64,000 nucleotides of DNA from a virus (taxonomy: Duplodnaviria; Heunggongvirae; Uroviricota; Caudoviricetes): the IMG/VR virus record IMGVR_UViG_2684623011_000001, positions 53,091-117,090 of that record, one strand, 5' to 3'. Of the stretch, positions 27,097 to 30,565 are shown piece by piece (the first letter of the stretch is position 1; each line of letters starts with the position of its first letter). Made by a program: the position numbers and the translations under genes. The notes under the pieces were generated by a model. That model saw only the letters and a list, made by a program, of their open reading frames with translations, was not told the DNA's origin and did not search any database.

Positions 27097-27330
27097 TTAC
27101 ATTTTCATTATGTTATTTAACATCATTGGCGTTGTTGTAATACTATTTAGATCATCAATCTTGCAGGTAAATGATCCATCATTCCCAAAGTCAATCACAC
27201 ATACTCCCTTAATTGGTTCAGTAATGTTCTCAACCCTACCCGGGAACGACATAAGTGCTTGATGTTTCAAGCTAATTGTAGTTAACCAAGAAAAATCACC
27301 TGATACTGGTCTTCCTCGAAATGCTTTCAT
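27097..27330 (-). CDS. hypothetical protein
   Basis: 77-aa ORF. Confidence 0.45.
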   Translation of the reverse strand: MKAFRGRPVSGDFSWLTTISLKHQALMSFPGRVENITEPIKGVCVIDFGNDGSFTCKIDDLNSITTTPMMLNNIMKM

Positions 27331-27671
27331 TAATTCTCCGCCTTTACTGGTTCAATAATTGCCTTATCCCAGTCAATTGCTAAATCTTTTCGTTCTTTTA
27401 ACTTATCAATTTCTTCTTGAGTGAAATGAGTTTGAAAATCACTATCTTTATCAATGTTGTTAAGAACAATATCTTCACCCTGAAAAACATTTAAATATCC
27501 ACGTTCGCCAGGAAAGACTTGTACAGTATATTTTTGATTACTCAAAATTTGTCCACGAACTTTATAGAGCCAACTTAATGCGTCCTCGACAAGGATAGCC
27601 GGAGTCCCCTCATGTACATCCATGACAGCCTCTAATTGATTAATTTGGTCGTCAATTAATTTCATGTACAT
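27330..27671 (-). CDS. hypothetical protein, family B paralog (QTHFTQEEID motif, C-terminal EPV)
   Basis: Paralog of 29164-29583 and of the C-terminal part of 30113-30565. Confidence 0.55.
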   Translation of the reverse strand: MYMKLIDDQINQLEAVMDVHEGTPAILVEDALSWLYKVRGQILSNQKYTVQVFPGERGYLNVFQGEDIVLNNIDKDSDFQTHFTQEEIDKLKERKDLAIDWDKAIIEPVKAEN

Positions 27672-28384
27672 TACTCTTCCACCTCAATTGGCTTGATAGC
27701 TTTAACCCAGTCGGGTCCATCAAGGATGTCTCTGCCTTGAACGGTAAATGTATCATTATGGTAGAGACAAGTTGAATGAAACGCCTCTTCAGCAGTACGT
27801 CCGTCTCCGATAAAGATCCATTTATCGAGGTCTTTTTTAGCAAATCTATCTGAACCTTCCATTGGTAAAATATACTTTTTATCTGGATCGATTTTGGAAG
27901 ACATCAACTTGTTACCTTCGCCTCTTAGACAGATTTTAAGTCTTAACCCATAATCATCTTCAGGATCATAAATATCTACTCTATAACCATATTTACGCAA
28001 TGCTTCCGCTAAACTTTCGATATGGTATACGCGAACCATTTCATAACGAGGAAAATCGAAAGCAGTATAGCCATTATTTTCCCTGGTGTATTCGAACAAT
28101 ATTAAACTATCTTGCTCGTTGTTAATAGCTTCATCAATTGCAACAAATGCTTTGTTTAACTCTTTAGGTAATGCTTTATTTTCAATTTGTCGGAATCGCT
28201 CCGCTGCTTCTTCGGCAGTGATTACATTGGCTCGCCATGTAAGACTTTCTATCTTTTTCTCAAGATCATTCCACTGCCCTTCCAGTCTTCGAATAGCTTT
28301 TTCGGTCTCGGATGGAACCCTATGATGGTTCAAATATTCTTGCTTATTACCAAATAATCCCATTATCTTCCTCCAGCATTTCAA
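27671..28384 (-). CDS. hypothetical protein, family A paralog (KYILPMEGS ... WVKAIKPIEVEE)
   Basis: Paralog of 29583-30113. Confidence 0.55.
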   Translation of the reverse strand: MKCWRKIMGLFGNKQEYLNHHRVPSETEKAIRRLEGQWNDLEKKIESLTWRANVITAEEAAERFRQIENKALPKELNKAFVAIDEAINNEQDSLILFEYTRENNGYTAFDFPRYEMVRVYHIESLAEALRKYGYRVDIYDPEDDYGLRLKICLRGEGNKLMSSKIDPDKKYILPMEGSDRFAKKDLDKWIFIGDGRTAEEAFHSTCLYHNDTFTVQGRDILDGPDWVKAIKPIEVEE

Positions 28385-28550
28385 AGTATTCTTTAGGCGA
28401 AATTTGATGATACAGTTCTCGCAATGAACCTGCTCTACCTATACTTTCATACATATAATTTATACTCTCTACATGCCAGATTCCCTTATATCCTGAAGTA
28501 TATGCGGCAAGTGGTTCCTTATTCTGATGAAACCAACTAAATAATCTCAT
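28347..28550 (-). CDS. hypothetical protein
   Basis: 67-aa ORF. Confidence 0.4.
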   Translation of the reverse strand: MRLFSWFHQNKEPLAAYTSGYKGIWHVESINYMYESIGRAGSLRELYHQISPKEYFEMLEEDNGIIW

Positions 28551-28657
28551 TACGCTACCTCCTGTAATTCATCGCTCCAACAATAAGGGCAAACATTTAA
28601 TTCATCAGTATCTTCGACAAAGAAACGTTCACCACAATCAAGACAAATACGAATCAT
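28550..28657 (-). CDS. zinc-ribbon peptide (35 aa)
   Basis: MIRICLDCGERFF...CPYCWSDE. Not in the track. Confidence 0.35.
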   Translation of the reverse strand: MIRICLDCGERFFVEDTDELNVCPYCWSDELQEVA

Positions 28658-28848
28658 TTAAATCTCCTAACTATAATAAAGTTACAAATAATTCCGACAA
28701 ACATGGCAATCAAATAAATCCAAACAGTTATTTTTGATACTAATGCAAAGTTATTTATAGTAGCTGCTATCCATGATGCAATAATTAGCCCTGCAACCAT
28801 AACACTTACTCCATAGCAAAATCCCGAGAGAAAACTTAACTTATTCAA
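28654..28848 (-). CDS. small membrane protein
   Basis: 64 aa. Confidence 0.45.
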   Translation of the reverse strand: MNKLSFLSGFCYGVSVMVAGLIIASWIAATINNFALVSKITVWIYLIAMFVGIICNFIIVRRFK

Positions 28849-28850
28849 AC

Positions 28851-29171
28851 TTACTCCTCCACACGAATTGACTTCTTACTTTCTTGATTCTTTCGCAAAA
28901 TATAATTGTTAAAGACGTTCTTGTAATAATCAACTACGACACTAAAATCAACATCTTCCAGCTCTTCATCGAAATATTCCCATTTCATTGTTCCCCATTC
29001 CCATTCCGTAACATCGAAATTAGTCGGATATAAGATGATATAGAAAACAAAGAGAATAGCCTTGTAAATTACCATTCCTATCAATCTAAGCGTTGCGAGG
29101 ATTGGTAAACATACGGCTATCATAAGAAGCGCCCATGCTAAGAAGACAAATTTAACAAATTTCTTAATCAT
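28851..29171 (-). CDS. membrane protein
   Basis: 106 aa. Confidence 0.45.
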   Translation of the reverse strand: MIKKFVKFVFLAWALLMIAVCLPILATLRLIGMVIYKAILFVFYIILYPTNFDVTEWEWGTMKWEYFDEELEDVDFSVVVDYYKNVFNNYILRKNQESKKSIRVEE

Positions 29172-29583
29172 CGTCCTCTACTGGTTCAATCTTCACGTTG
29201 TCCCAATTAATGGCTGCGAAGAATGGATTATCTTTCATTTCATCAATTTCTGATTGGGTGAAGTGCGTTTGATACTTCCCATCTCCCTCGTTATCATAAA
29301 GAAAATAGACGCCATCTCCTATATCTTTATTCAAGAATCCATCATCATTTGGCAAAACTTGAACAGTATATTCACTATCGCCTTCTGCTAATTTAATGCG
29401 TTTATGCAGACTATCTCTATACATTGCCATACCAACCATTTGATTAGCTAACAACATTTGATTAATGGTTGAAATACTTAGAAAATCATCGCAATCAATG
29501 AATTTTTGTAGCTTCTCAATTTTTGTTTCTAACTCAAATAATTCAAGATTTAAATTTTCAGTATCAATTATTTTATTTATCAT
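29164..29583 (-). CDS. hypothetical protein, family B paralog
   Basis: QTHFTQSEIDEMKD and a C-terminal IEPVEDDD. Confidence 0.55.
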   Translation of the reverse strand: MINKIIDTENLNLELFELETKIEKLQKFIDCDDFLSISTINQMLLANQMVGMAMYRDSLHKRIKLAEGDSEYTVQVLPNDDGFLNKDIGDGVYFLYDNEGDGKYQTHFTQSEIDEMKDNPFFAAINWDNVKIEPVEDDD

Positions 29584-30113
29584 TATTCTTCTACCTCCAC
29601 AGGTTCAAGCGCCTTTACCCATTCAGGTGCTTCTTCAATGTCTTTAGCGGTAACCAAATAGTTTGGAGTATATAGGGCTATATCATCTTTTTCTGGAAAA
29701 AAGCTCCCACAATCCCAAACTCCTAATTTATTTTTAAATGCACATCTTTGGACTTTCTCACCAAATGTATTGGTAATTGTTGAACCTTCCATAGGTAAAA
29801 TGTATTTTTTATTAGGGTCAAGATCTACATTTTCCCATTCGATAGAGAGATGCCAAACCTTATCCGCACCCATATCTTTTTCAAGATTTACGTTGTAGCC
29901 CTGTTTAACCAGTTCGTTAAAAACACGGTCAGCTAAATAAAGACTATCGATCCAATAATCTATTGAGGTATTACGGTTATCCACTTCTTCGTGGATGAAA
30001 TTATAAACATCTATGAGTAGCTTAATGTAATCTTCTTCAGTTCCAATTGAACGCTTATGTGCCTCACGAGCTGTCATTTTTACTGGAATAACATCTTTTT
30101 CGTACGTAAGCAT
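29583..30113 (-). CDS. hypothetical protein, family A paralog
   Basis: KYILPMEGS ... EWVKALEPVEVEE. Confidence 0.55.
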   Translation of the reverse strand: MLTYEKDVIPVKMTAREAHKRSIGTEEDYIKLLIDVYNFIHEEVDNRNTSIDYWIDSLYLADRVFNELVKQGYNVNLEKDMGADKVWHLSIEWENVDLDPNKKYILPMEGSTITNTFGEKVQRCAFKNKLGVWDCGSFFPEKDDIALYTPNYLVTAKDIEEAPEWVKALEPVEVEE

Positions 30114-30565
30114 TATTCGTCCTCTTTCTTAATCTTTTCAATTAGTGATGCTAATGCCGGGAATTGCTTTTTGGCCACGTCCAATTCTTTTTGGGTGTGA
30201 TATACTCCATTACCGCCATAGTTAATTTCCACACGGCCATCCTTAACGTCTAAGTAATTCTTATCTCCGTCTGCATCTACTCCGAGTGGCAAGACAAATC
30301 TAGCCGGAATGTTAATCTCACGTAGATCTATCGATGTATTAAGATATTCCTTAACAATCTCTAATACAGTTAGTGCTCCGGTATTTAATTCTCTGAGTAT
30401 CATTGACTCATCAATTCGTATATTCATTGGTTTAGTGCTTCTGGCATCTACCTGTAACAACCAATCGTCATCGGTAGTTCGGCGAACAAACAAGCGTCTT
30501 CCTTCAACAGTCGCCCTAAACCTGCCTAATTCACTAATCTTTTCAATTGCAGTTGCCAACTTCAT
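30113..30565 (-). CDS. hypothetical protein with a family-B-like C-terminal motif (YHTQKELD)
   Basis: 150-aa ORF. Confidence 0.5.
   Translation of the reverse strand: MKLATAIEKISELGRFRATVEGRRLFVRRTTDDDWLLQVDARSTKPMNIRIDESMILRELNTGALTVLEIVKEYLNTSIDLREINIPARFVLPLGVDADGDKNYLDVKDGRVEINYGGNGVYHTQKELDVAKKQFPALASLIEKIKKEDE

What the first reader, a model, noticed from the sequence alone, without database searches (positions are those of the whole stretch)
27330..30565. Tandemly duplicated two-gene module with shared motifs and C-terminal EPV tails
The gene pair 29583-30113 plus 29164-29583 is repeated as 27671-28384 plus 27330-27671. Family A copies share KYILPMEGS and W-VKA[L/I][E/K]P[V/I]EVEE. 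Family B copies share VQV[F/L]P...QTHFTQ[E/S]EID and end in IEPV[E/K]. A third protein (30113-30565) carries the related YHTQKELD motif. No known domain is recognised. Conserved acidic EPV-type C-termini across two different families suggest a common docking partner. This is a possible host-takeover or anti-defence module under diversifying duplication.
Basis: seen in the sequence. Interest (0 to 1): 0.55.

Follow-up and report, generated by a model that had tools for sequence, protein, structure and literature searches.

The report
Phage gene cluster sharing one domain
Five neighbouring genes of a large Limosilactobacillus reuteri phage-like element all end in the same small domain of unknown function; one is fused to a known anti-Thoeris 'Sequestin' sponge and the middle of the domain is swapped like a cassette between near-identical relatives, so the cluster is a plausible but unproven counter-defence island.

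Summary
A1/A2 (31% identity, E=5e-12) and B1/B2 (43% over 69 aa, E=1e-15) are paralogues on the minus strand, in the same A-then-B order with 1-nt stop/start overlaps.

The interpretation needs revision. The "two families with convergent EPV tails" are one domain. The C-terminal ~70 aa of A, B and the third protein C are three sequence flavours of the C-terminal half of Pfam DUF1642. This is shown through two bona fide DUF1642 proteins that share an N-terminus and then carry an A-type or a B-type tail. In the AlphaFold models "EPV" lies in the last beta-strand, not in a free docking peptide.

"No known domain" is wrong. B1 residues 10-64 are a Sequestin domain (PF21825, 40.5 bits) with the E/Q/R triad needed for anti-Thoeris activity.

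Related contigs are ~99-100% identical up to KKYILPME. They then show no DNA similarity across a ~130-nt cassette and resume identity afterwards. The top 120 database homologues plus the two window copies give 18 cassette types on 6 N-domain types. Copy number varies from 2 to 5.

Best reading: an accessory, recombination-driven early-gene island of modular proteins, probably counter-defence. The function of the shared domain remains unknown.

The parts
30113..30565 (-). Protein C (150 aa): N-terminal domain of unknown function plus a divergent DUF1642-C-type domain. It has RFVLPLGVDADGDKNYL and YHTQKELD, and its tail has lost the IDWDK segment.
   Evidence: ORF. C vs P0213 E=6e-22 over 141 aa, with a 5-residue gap where P0213 has IDWDK. 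P0213's tail is 87% identical to B2's. C is absent from L001, L003-5 and L007-8.
29583..30113 (-). A1 (176 aa): an alpha/beta N-domain (residues ~15-92) plus an A-type DUF1642-C domain (residues ~102-176).
   Evidence: AlphaFold2 model pLDDT 77. C-domain vs phage LJ orf16: 36% over 73 aa, E=2e-10. LJ orf16 scores 43.1 bits against DUF1642.
29655..29787 (-). A1 hypervariable cassette, about residues 110-153: the beta1-beta2 loop, the beta2-beta3 hairpin and the following loop.
   Evidence: L002 and L006 are 99.9% identical over 29788-31500 and 98.8% over 28538-29654, with no blastn match in between. 18 cassette clusters on 6 N-domain clusters.
29164..29583 (-). B1 (139 aa): a fusion of a Sequestin domain (residues 10-64, about 29392-29556) with a B-type DUF1642-C domain (residues ~70-139).
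   Evidence: PF21825 40.5 bits vs gathering score 24.8. E14/Q48/R62 align with SequestinA E12/Q47/R61. B-type profile 90.7 bits.
28851..29171 (-). 106-aa predicted membrane protein between the two A-B pairs; overlaps B1 by 8 nt.
   Evidence: hydrophobic N-terminal half. Conserved in L001-L003 and L005-L008, absent from L004. The relative in p53608_1 is annotated 'hypothetical membrane protein'.
28654..28848 (-). 64-aa predicted membrane protein.
   Evidence: Present as a 64-aa gene in L003 and L007.
28347..28550 (-). 67-aa ORF upstream of A2, overlapping the A2 start by 17 nt.
   Evidence: An identical gene is called in L005.
27671..28363 (-). A2 (230 aa from the ATG at 28363): an N-terminal helical extension, an A-type alpha/beta domain and an A-type DUF1642-C domain.
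   Evidence: GGAGGA lies just upstream of the ATG at 28363.
27719..27856 (-). A2 hypervariable cassette.
   Evidence: L005 is 100% identical over 27857-29821 and then diverges. The resident cassette maps to 27719-27859. Alternative cassettes in L001, L002, L003 and L005.
27330..27671 (-). B2 (113 aa): a helical hairpin (residues 2-45) plus a B-type DUF1642-C domain (residues 46-113).
   Evidence: AlphaFold2 pLDDT 89.6. B-type profile 104 bits. BLASTP vs the DUF1642 protein P0323 E=7e-12. phrog_3784 E=1e-13.
22669..22950 (-). Second, stand-alone Sequestin gene (94 aa). It lies outside the finding but belongs to the same functional theme.
   Evidence: PF21825 48.6 bits. E/Q/R triad conserved.

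Best explanation
The region is an accessory early-gene island of a ~130-kb L. reuteri phage or phage-plasmid. Its proteins are built from interchangeable parts.

All five proteins (C, A1, B1, A2, B2) end in one ~70-residue domain, the C-terminal half of Pfam DUF1642. The predicted layout is beta1 (KKY-x-h-x-h), a beta2-beta3 hairpin, a short beta4, a helix (T-Q-x-E-I/L), a Trp turn (W-x-K-A) and beta5 (I-E-P-V), followed by a short acidic end. The domain is joined to different N-terminal 'heads': an alpha/beta domain in A1 and A2, a Sequestin sponge in B1, a helical hairpin in B2, and another domain in C.

Shown here:
- the homology of the domain;
- the Sequestin domain with its functional triad;
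- sharp recombination junctions at the domain boundary and on both sides of a ~45-residue hairpin/loop cassette;
- variable copy number (2 to 5) among near-identical relatives.

Inferred:
- B1 sequesters the type I Thoeris signal 3'cADPR.
- The island as a whole serves counter-defence or host takeover.
- The conserved core of the shared domain is a scaffold, used for oligomerisation or partner binding. Its exposed hairpin/loop cassette determines specificity and is exchanged between phages by homologous recombination at the conserved flanks, under selection from variable hosts.
For: - **Paralogy:**
- **One domain:** LJ orf16 scores 43.1 bits against DUF1642 (gathering score 27.8), residues 54-172 on profile 1-137. 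Its C-terminus is A-type: E=2e-10 vs A1 and 63 bits vs the A-type profile. P0323 scores 45.9 bits, residues 59-160 on profile 1-130. Its C-terminus is B-type: E=7e-12 vs B2. The two are 54% identical over residues 1-117 and diverge just past the KKY motif. P0312 (35.2 bits) and P0335 (30.7 bits) are also B-type and above threshold. 12 of 138 B-type representatives hit DUF1642.
- **Same secondary-structure order** in the A1 and B2 models.
- **Protein C** is linked through P0213.
- **Sequestin:**. A second copy lies at 22669-22950.
- **Mosaicism:**. Within the largest N-domain cluster, mean pairwise identity is 94% for the N-domain, 46% for the cassette and 89% for the tail.
- **Accessory status:** L004 lacks A2, B2 and the membrane genes. 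L002 and L006 lack B2. C is often absent.
- **Distribution:** the domain is always C-terminal, in 419 cluster representatives. Other fusion partners include HTH_3. From my own knowledge, this resembles the self-regulating HTH-anti-CRISPR fusions.
- **Fusion as a clue:** fusion of sponge domains to other counter-defence domains is documented.
Against: - No experiment or solved structure exists for DUF1642.
- The fold searches gave nothing informative for the beta domain.
- The window's own proteins do not reach the Pfam DUF1642 threshold. Direct A-type vs B-type profile comparison gives only 58% probability. Homology therefore rests on intermediates and on positional equivalence.
- Only one of the five proteins carries a domain with a known counter-defence role.
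- The domain is strongly acidic (B1 C-domain net charge -14), which does not suggest nucleotide binding.
- Mosaic hypothetical genes are common in phage early regions whatever their function.
- No Thoeris system was shown in the host.
Confidence: 0.55

Rival explanations
1. A and B are two unrelated families that each evolved an acidic EPV C-terminal peptide that docks onto one common partner, and A+B work as a two-gene module.
For: The tails are similar and acidic. The A-then-B order with 1-nt overlaps occurs twice. Direct profile comparison aligns mainly the tail with confidence.
Against: Both tails belong to the same Pfam domain slot. EPV is modelled inside the last beta-strand, with block pLDDT 94 for B2 residues 101-110 and 89 and 77 for the last two blocks of A1. 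A2 exists without B2 in L002 and L006. B1 is invariant while the A1 cassette changes, so there is no co-variation.
Confidence: 0.07
2. The shared C-domain is only a homo-oligomerisation or stability module. The island consists of ordinary early 'host-takeover' or replication-accessory proteins with no role in counter-defence. Cassette variation serves to stop co-expressed paralogues from cross-assembling, or is neutral mosaicism.
For: HTH_3 fusions look like repressors with a C-terminal multimerisation domain. Sequestin acts as a homo-oligomer. Five paralogues are co-expressed from one strand. The island sits among nucleotide-metabolism and replication genes.
Against: Avoiding cross-assembly does not explain allelic cassette replacement at one locus between phages that are otherwise 99-100% identical. 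It also does not explain 18 cassette types on 6 N-domain types. Short proteins consisting of little more than the domain are among the hits, though some may be truncated by contig ends.
Confidence: 0.25
3. The proteins are targets rather than weapons. They are needed early proteins that host abortive-infection or other sensors recognise, and the cassettes are escape variants.
For: Variation is sharp and localised, with conserved flanks. From my own knowledge, lactococcal phages escape Abi systems by changes in early genes (sak, sav).
Against: The genes are dispensable in close relatives (L004 has 2 copies, the window has 5). That argues against an essential sensed function. One member is itself a sponge.
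Confidence: 0.1
4. The A-B pairs are toxin-antitoxin or addiction modules that maintain the plasmid-like element.
For: Relatives are deposited as circular 129-139 kb plasmids. The genes are small and translationally coupled pairs.
Against: All five proteins are acidic, with pI 4.2-5.6. A and B share a domain. A2 occurs without B2. There are no matches to toxin or antitoxin families in Pfam or NCBIfam.
Confidence: 0.03

Closest known systems
Pfam DUF1642 (PF07852), e.g. Lactobacillus phage LJ orf16 and protein P0323
   Same: The C-terminal ~70 aa of A1 and A2 (A-type) and of B1 and B2 (B-type) correspond to profile positions ~62-138. They share the KKY start, the T-Q-x-E-I/L helix, W-x-K-A, the P-V strand and the acidic end. 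The hosts are the same group of phages, those of Lactobacillales and relatives.
   Different: The window proteins lack the N-terminal half of DUF1642 and none reaches the Pfam threshold. They carry other N-terminal domains. The function of DUF1642 is unknown: the only relevant mention found treats it as an uninformative annotation.
Sequestin (PF21825, formerly crAss001_48), a viral sponge for the type I Thoeris signal 3'cADPR (bioRxiv 10.1101/2025.07.12.664507)
   Same: B1 residues 10-64 score above the gathering threshold. They keep the residues whose mutation abolishes activity, E12/Q47/R61 in SequestinA. The phage also has a stand-alone copy. Sequestin is known to occur fused to other counter-defence domains, Tad2 and Acb4.
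   Different: Here the fusion partner is a DUF1642-C domain, not a known sponge. No such sequence was found in the part of the paper's Table S1 that is held (the file is truncated). The R8 equivalent is Asn in B1, but R8A was tolerated in the paper. Binding and Thoeris inhibition are untested.
HTH-fused anti-CRISPR proteins such as AcrIIA1 and AcrIIA13-15 (recalled from my own knowledge, not tested here)
   Same: Some DUF1642-C proteins have an N-terminal XRE-type HTH directly joined to the domain. This is the architecture of self-regulating anti-defence proteins.
   Different: No sequence or fold relation to any anti-CRISPR was shown. The window proteins have no HTH.
Cassette-type mosaicism such as phage receptor-binding protein tips, and DGR variable regions
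   Same: A short hypervariable segment is embedded between highly conserved flanks.
   Different: The proteins are non-structural and lie among replication and nucleotide-metabolism genes. Cassettes differ in length (45-53 residues between the motifs) and share no DNA similarity. No template repeat or silent copy exists in the window. This is not DGR mutagenesis and not an intragenomic archive.

Membership tests
Pfam DUF1642 (PF07852) | Score at or above the Pfam gathering threshold (27.8 bits) against the family profile | tested here: not met
   No DUF1642 hit at E<=1 for A1, A2, B1, B2 or C. Close B-type relatives reach only 17-20 bits. A-family relatives give no hit.
Pfam DUF1642 (PF07852) | Significant similarity to bona fide members over the C-terminal half of the profile | tested here: met
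   A1 vs LJ orf16 (43.1 bits DUF1642): E=2e-10. B2 vs P0323 (45.9 bits DUF1642): E=7e-12. P0312 and P0335 are above threshold on profile positions 62-128 and 46-127.
Pfam DUF1642 (PF07852) | Presence of the N-terminal half of the family profile (positions ~1-60) | tested here: not met
   The N-termini of the window proteins are unrelated to those of LJ orf16 and P0323. BLASTP aligns only the C-domain.
Sequestin (PF21825) | Score above the Pfam gathering threshold (24.8 bits) | tested here: met
   B1 scores 40.5 bits, residues 10-64 on profile 6-60 of 61. The stand-alone gene at 22669-22950 scores 48.6 bits. B2's N-terminus does not qualify (hhalign probability 1%).
Sequestin (PF21825) | Conserved pocket residues required for activity (SequestinA E12, Q47, R61) | tested here: met
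   An alignment with SequestinA, B and C from Table S1 places B1 E14, Q48 and R62 in those columns.
Sequestin (PF21825) | Homo-dimer or homo-tetramer with interface pockets; binds 3'cADPR; cancels type I Thoeris defence | not testable with these tools
   Only monomer prediction is available and there is no ligand modelling or wet assay. The property is taken from the paper.
Diversity-generating retroelement target | A nearby template repeat matching the variable region, and variants of equal length that differ at adenine-templated sites | tested here: not met
   No repeat of the cassette in the region or the window. Cassettes differ in length and have no detectable DNA similarity. Presence of a reverse transcriptase was not specifically searched for.
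Type II toxin-antitoxin pair | Obligate co-occurrence of the two genes, and matches to toxin or antitoxin families | tested here: not met
   A2 occurs without B2 in L002 and L006. No such families appear in Pfam or NCBIfam. All the proteins are acidic.

The most novel reading that the evidence does not exclude
The C-terminal half of DUF1642 is itself a new and widespread counter-defence domain of phages of Bacillota, either a signal sponge or a protein inhibitor. Its conserved core carries the activity or the assembly function. Its swappable hairpin/loop cassette sets which host defence allele is neutralised. Phages would then carry several copies with different heads and cassettes as a combinatorial anti-immunity kit. 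The logic is the one that uncovered Sequestin: fusion to a known sponge.
Probability: 0.2. Interest if true: 0.75.

Novelty: new variant of a known kind. Interest (0 to 1): 0.5.

Why it matters
DUF1642 is a long-standing domain of unknown function in phages of lactic acid bacteria, streptococci and relatives. Here its C-terminal half appears as an independent, always C-terminal module in 419 protein clusters. It is present five times within 3.2 kb, is fused to a verified class of anti-Thoeris sponge, and carries a cassette that is exchanged between phages that are otherwise 99-100% identical.

This gives concrete, cheap experiments for assigning a function to the domain. It also gives a natural allele series (18 cassette types) for mapping specificity. 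If the domain proves to be counter-defence, it would extend the repertoire of phage immune evasion in Gram-positive food and gut bacteria. If not, the finding remains a clear example of domain-level and sub-domain-level mosaicism in phage early genes.

Tried and rejected
1. **Direct A-type vs B-type homology from narrow profiles.** hmmsearch did not cross-detect. hhalign gave 56-58% probability, driven by the last 15 columns. I relied on the intermediates instead.
2. **hhalign of the full-length alignments A4 vs A5.** It gave 96.7%, but this is an artefact. One row of A5 (P0140) is a natural fusion of an A-type N-domain to B1.
3. **P0170 as in-register proof of equivalence.** It joins B2's N-terminus to an A-type tail, but the junction (QKY) joins B2's beta1 to A's beta2. 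I did not use it.
4. **B2's N-terminus as a degraded Sequestin.** Rejected: hhalign probability 1%, no Pfam hit, and the Arg-bearing half of helix 2 is missing.
5. **DGR or an intragenomic silent-cassette archive.** Rejected.
6. **Toxin-antitoxin pair and structural protein readings.** Rejected.
7. **Fold searches.** The A1 model gave only generic alpha/beta matches for the N-domain (SirA, Smr, Alba, R3H, uS8; Z<=8). The B2 model gave only helical-hairpin matches in the PDB and uncharacterised lactic-acid-bacteria phage proteins in BFVD. The afdb50 library was unavailable.
8. **PDB sequence searches.** Nothing found.
9. **Promoter and terminator scan.** No more sites than in shuffled sequence.
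10. **Literature.** DUF1642 has no functional study. Searching reuteri with Thoeris gave nothing useful.

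
Full report
**1. What is there**

The minus strand between 27330 and 30565 carries these ORFs in order:
- C (30113-30565, 150 aa)
- A1 (29583-30113, 176 aa)
- B1 (29164-29583, 139 aa)
- three small ORFs, two of them hydrophobic (28851-29171, 28654-28848, 28347-28550)
- A2
- B2 (27330-27671, 113 aa)

C/A1, A1/B1 and A2/B2 share one nucleotide between stop and start, so the genes are tightly packed on one strand.

A2 is better started at the ATG at 28363. A GGAGGA site precedes it, and all homologues begin MGLF.

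A1 vs A2 is 31% identical over 166 aa, E=5e-12. B1 vs B2 is 43% identical over 69 aa, E=1e-15. At the DNA level only the motif-coding stretches are still similar (39 nt at 85%, 52 nt at 73%). The duplication is therefore old.

**2. Where the window comes from**

There is no close relative among deposited phages. Only the deoxynucleoside kinase next door resembles those of Lactobacillus myophages Lb338-1 and Lbab1.

Protein homologues of A and B that carry a source name are all named Limosilactobacillus reuteri. They sit on contigs of up to ~139 kb.

Three relatives are deposited as circular, non-mobilizable L. reuteri "plasmids" of 129-139 kb. One is p53608_1 of ATCC 53608. It has the same dGK-A1-B1-membrane-A2-B2 order, with every gene annotated hypothetical.

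The window also encodes a phage-type DNA polymerase, a ligase, helicases, exonucleases and an integrase-like protein. The element is a large phage or a phage-plasmid.

**3. One shared domain, not two families**

B-type tails match PHROGs of unknown function (phrog_3784, phrog_3365). They also match hypothetical proteins of Lactobacillus and Lactococcus phages.

A profile of the B family found 419 cluster representatives at E<=0.001. In the 150 listed, the matched stretch almost always runs to within a few residues of the C-terminus, behind N-termini of 0-170 aa. Of 138 of them, 12 match Pfam DUF1642 (best E=9.5e-18) and 3 carry an XRE-type HTH.

The A-type tail has a single hit among deposited phages, orf16 of Lactobacillus phage LJ.
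- LJ orf16 is a bona fide DUF1642 protein: 43.1 bits against a gathering score of 27.8, with residues 54-172 on profile positions 1-137.
- Its last 73 residues are 36% identical to A1 (E=2e-10).
- They score 63 bits against my A-type profile.

Protein P0323 is also a bona fide DUF1642 protein: 45.9 bits, residues 59-160 on profile positions 1-130.
- It is 54% identical to LJ orf16 over residues 1-117, and the alignment stops just past the KKY motif.
- From there it continues with a B-type tail that matches B2 at E=7e-12.

The A-type and B-type tails therefore occupy the same slot of the same Pfam profile in orthologous proteins.

The AlphaFold2 models agree in the order of elements:
- A1: strands 103-107, 120-127 and 133-138, then helices 156-160 and 164-167, then strand 172-174.
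- B2: strands 47-51, 59-63 and 67-71, short strands, helix 85-92, a short helix, then strand 105-108 (pLDDT 89.6).

In both models EPV lies in the last strand.

Protein C is a third, more eroded flavour. It aligns over 141 residues with P0213 (E=6e-22). P0213's tail is 87% identical to B2's. C has a 5-residue gap where IDWDK would be.

Caveats:
- The window proteins themselves do not reach the DUF1642 threshold.
- Direct A-vs-B profile comparison is weak (58%).
- I could not superpose the models.

No further copies of the domain were detected in the window.

**4. The heads**

B1 residues 10-64 match PF21825 at 40.5 bits against a gathering score of 24.8. The gene tables label this family "Sequestin".

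A 2025 preprint shows that PF21825 proteins bind 3'cADPR and cancel type I Thoeris defence. It also shows that E12, Q47 and R61 of SequestinA are required, and that sponge domains are often fused to each other.

Using SequestinA, B and C sequences from the paper's Table S1, the alignment puts B1 E14, Q48 and R62 in those columns. The same holds for a second, stand-alone Sequestin gene at 22669-22950 (48.6 bits).

B2's N-terminal hairpin is not demonstrably Sequestin.

The N-domain of A1 and A2 is a small alpha/beta domain. It has only generic structural neighbours at Z<=8 (SirA, Smr, Alba, R3H). I draw no function from that.

All five proteins are acidic, with pI 4.2-5.6.

**5. Mosaicism**

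I compared the window with eight contigs that encode an identical B1. The junctions are sharp.
- L002 and L006 are 99.9% identical over 29788-31500 and 98.8% over 28538-29654. They have no detectable similarity across 29655-29787, which is the A1 segment between KKYILPME and VTAKDIEE.
- L005 is 100% identical over 27857-29821 and then has a different A2 cassette.
- L001, L003-L005, L007 and L008 keep the window's A1 cassette but have a different A1 N-domain. The break is at 29821-29837, which is the domain boundary.

Across the top 120 homologues of the A family (of 511 hits) plus the two window copies there are 18 cassette clusters on 6 N-domain clusters.
- One cassette type is shared between the A1 and A2 slots.
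- The window's A1 cassette occurs on three N-domain types.
- Within the largest N-domain cluster, mean pairwise identity is 94% for the N-domain, 46% for the cassette and 89% for the tail.
- A semi-conserved YA[YF]K..G.W hairpin persists inside most cassettes.

No silent copies of other cassettes exist in the window. Exchange is therefore between genomes, presumably by homologous recombination at the conserved flanks. That last step is an inference.

Gene content also varies.
- L004 has only A1 and B1.
- L002 and L006 replace B2 with a 57-aa zf-FCS protein and a 62-aa membrane protein.
- C is present only in L002 and L006 among the eight contigs.

A and B are therefore not an obligate pair. 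B1 also does not co-vary with the A1 cassette.

**6. How it most likely works**

Shown: five modular proteins share a DUF1642-C domain. One head is a Sequestin with intact key residues. The proteins are accessory, multi-copy and recombination-prone, with a hot spot in the hairpin/loop of the shared domain.

Inferred: B1 soaks up 3'cADPR. The island as a whole is a counter-defence or host-takeover kit. The conserved core of the domain provides assembly or partner binding, and the cassette provides specificity.

Fusion to a sponge and to HTH domains fits anti-defence effectors. It fits a plain oligomerisation module equally well. I rate the architecture claims at about 0.9, the B1 sponge activity at about 0.6-0.7, and the island-wide counter-defence role at about 0.45.

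**7. Novelty and verdict**

DUF1642 and Sequestin are both known families. Three things are new here:
- the recognition that the C-terminal half of DUF1642 is a free-standing, always C-terminal module with A-type, B-type and C-type flavours;
- its fusion to Sequestin;
- the sharply bounded cassette exchange.

No function can be assigned to the domain with these tools: there is no solved relative, no literature and no informative fold match.

Its "convergent docking tail" idea does not. Its anti-defence guess gains one solid piece of support. Interest is moderate: this is a well-defined, testable lead rather than a surprise.

Noticed in passing
window 31944-32321 (-), and 31550-35574 (-): A full-length tmRNA gene (Rfam RF00023, 74.4 bits vs gathering score 47; ARAGORN tag peptide ANNHRVTALAA) lies just upstream of the kinase and the cluster. 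Seven tRNA hits (Ile, Tyr, Trp, Arg and others) are spaced along the same stretch. A phage- or plasmid-borne tmRNA is unusual and was not studied further.
   Followed up: partly
window 22669-22950 (-): A second, stand-alone Sequestin gene (94 aa, PF21825 48.6 bits, E/Q/R triad conserved). It sits immediately upstream of a nucleoside 2-deoxyribosyltransferase gene (22185-22763). The element therefore carries two Sequestin-domain proteins.
   Followed up: yes
whole window; L010 (LN906635.1 93769-101971): Close relatives are deposited as circular, non-mobilizable 129-139 kb L. reuteri 'plasmids' (p53608_1, NZ_CP065541.1, NZ_CP102426.1). The window, however, encodes phage-type DNA polymerase, ligase, helicases, exonucleases and a tyrosine integrase-like protein (50260-51312). 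This may be a phage-plasmid, or a large phage recorded as a plasmid. No virion genes were looked for.
   Followed up: partly
window 28851-29171, 28654-28848 (-); L002 7705-8066: Small predicted membrane proteins sit between the two A-B pairs. In some relatives B2 is replaced by a 57-aa zf-FCS zinc-finger protein plus a 62-aa membrane protein. Function unknown.
   Followed up: no
protein P0140 (201 aa, 2.6-kb contig): A natural in-frame fusion of an A-type N-domain (through ...DPNKKYIL) directly to B1 from residue ~11. It deletes the A C-domain. It caused a spurious 96.7% hhalign match between the A and B full-length alignments.
   Followed up: partly
L009 (phage LJ orf16) residues 3-20; P0323 residues 1-16: Full-length DUF1642 proteins begin with KLYAVKNDEDEW. 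This resembles the YA[YF]K..G.W hairpin inside the A-type cassette (weak extra match, 5.5 bits). It may be an internal repeat of the hairpin motif within DUF1642.
   Followed up: no
L006 9916-10146 (-): A relative carries a gene with a HaeIII-type restriction endonuclease domain (PF09556) a few kb downstream of the cluster. These elements therefore also carry defence genes.
   Followed up: no
window 27097-27330 and 26556-27080 (-): The 77-aa and 174-aa genes just downstream of B2 are conserved in all eight related loci, whatever happens to the A2/B2 module. The 174-aa protein matches phrog_5083 (E=4e-16, unknown function).
   Followed up: no
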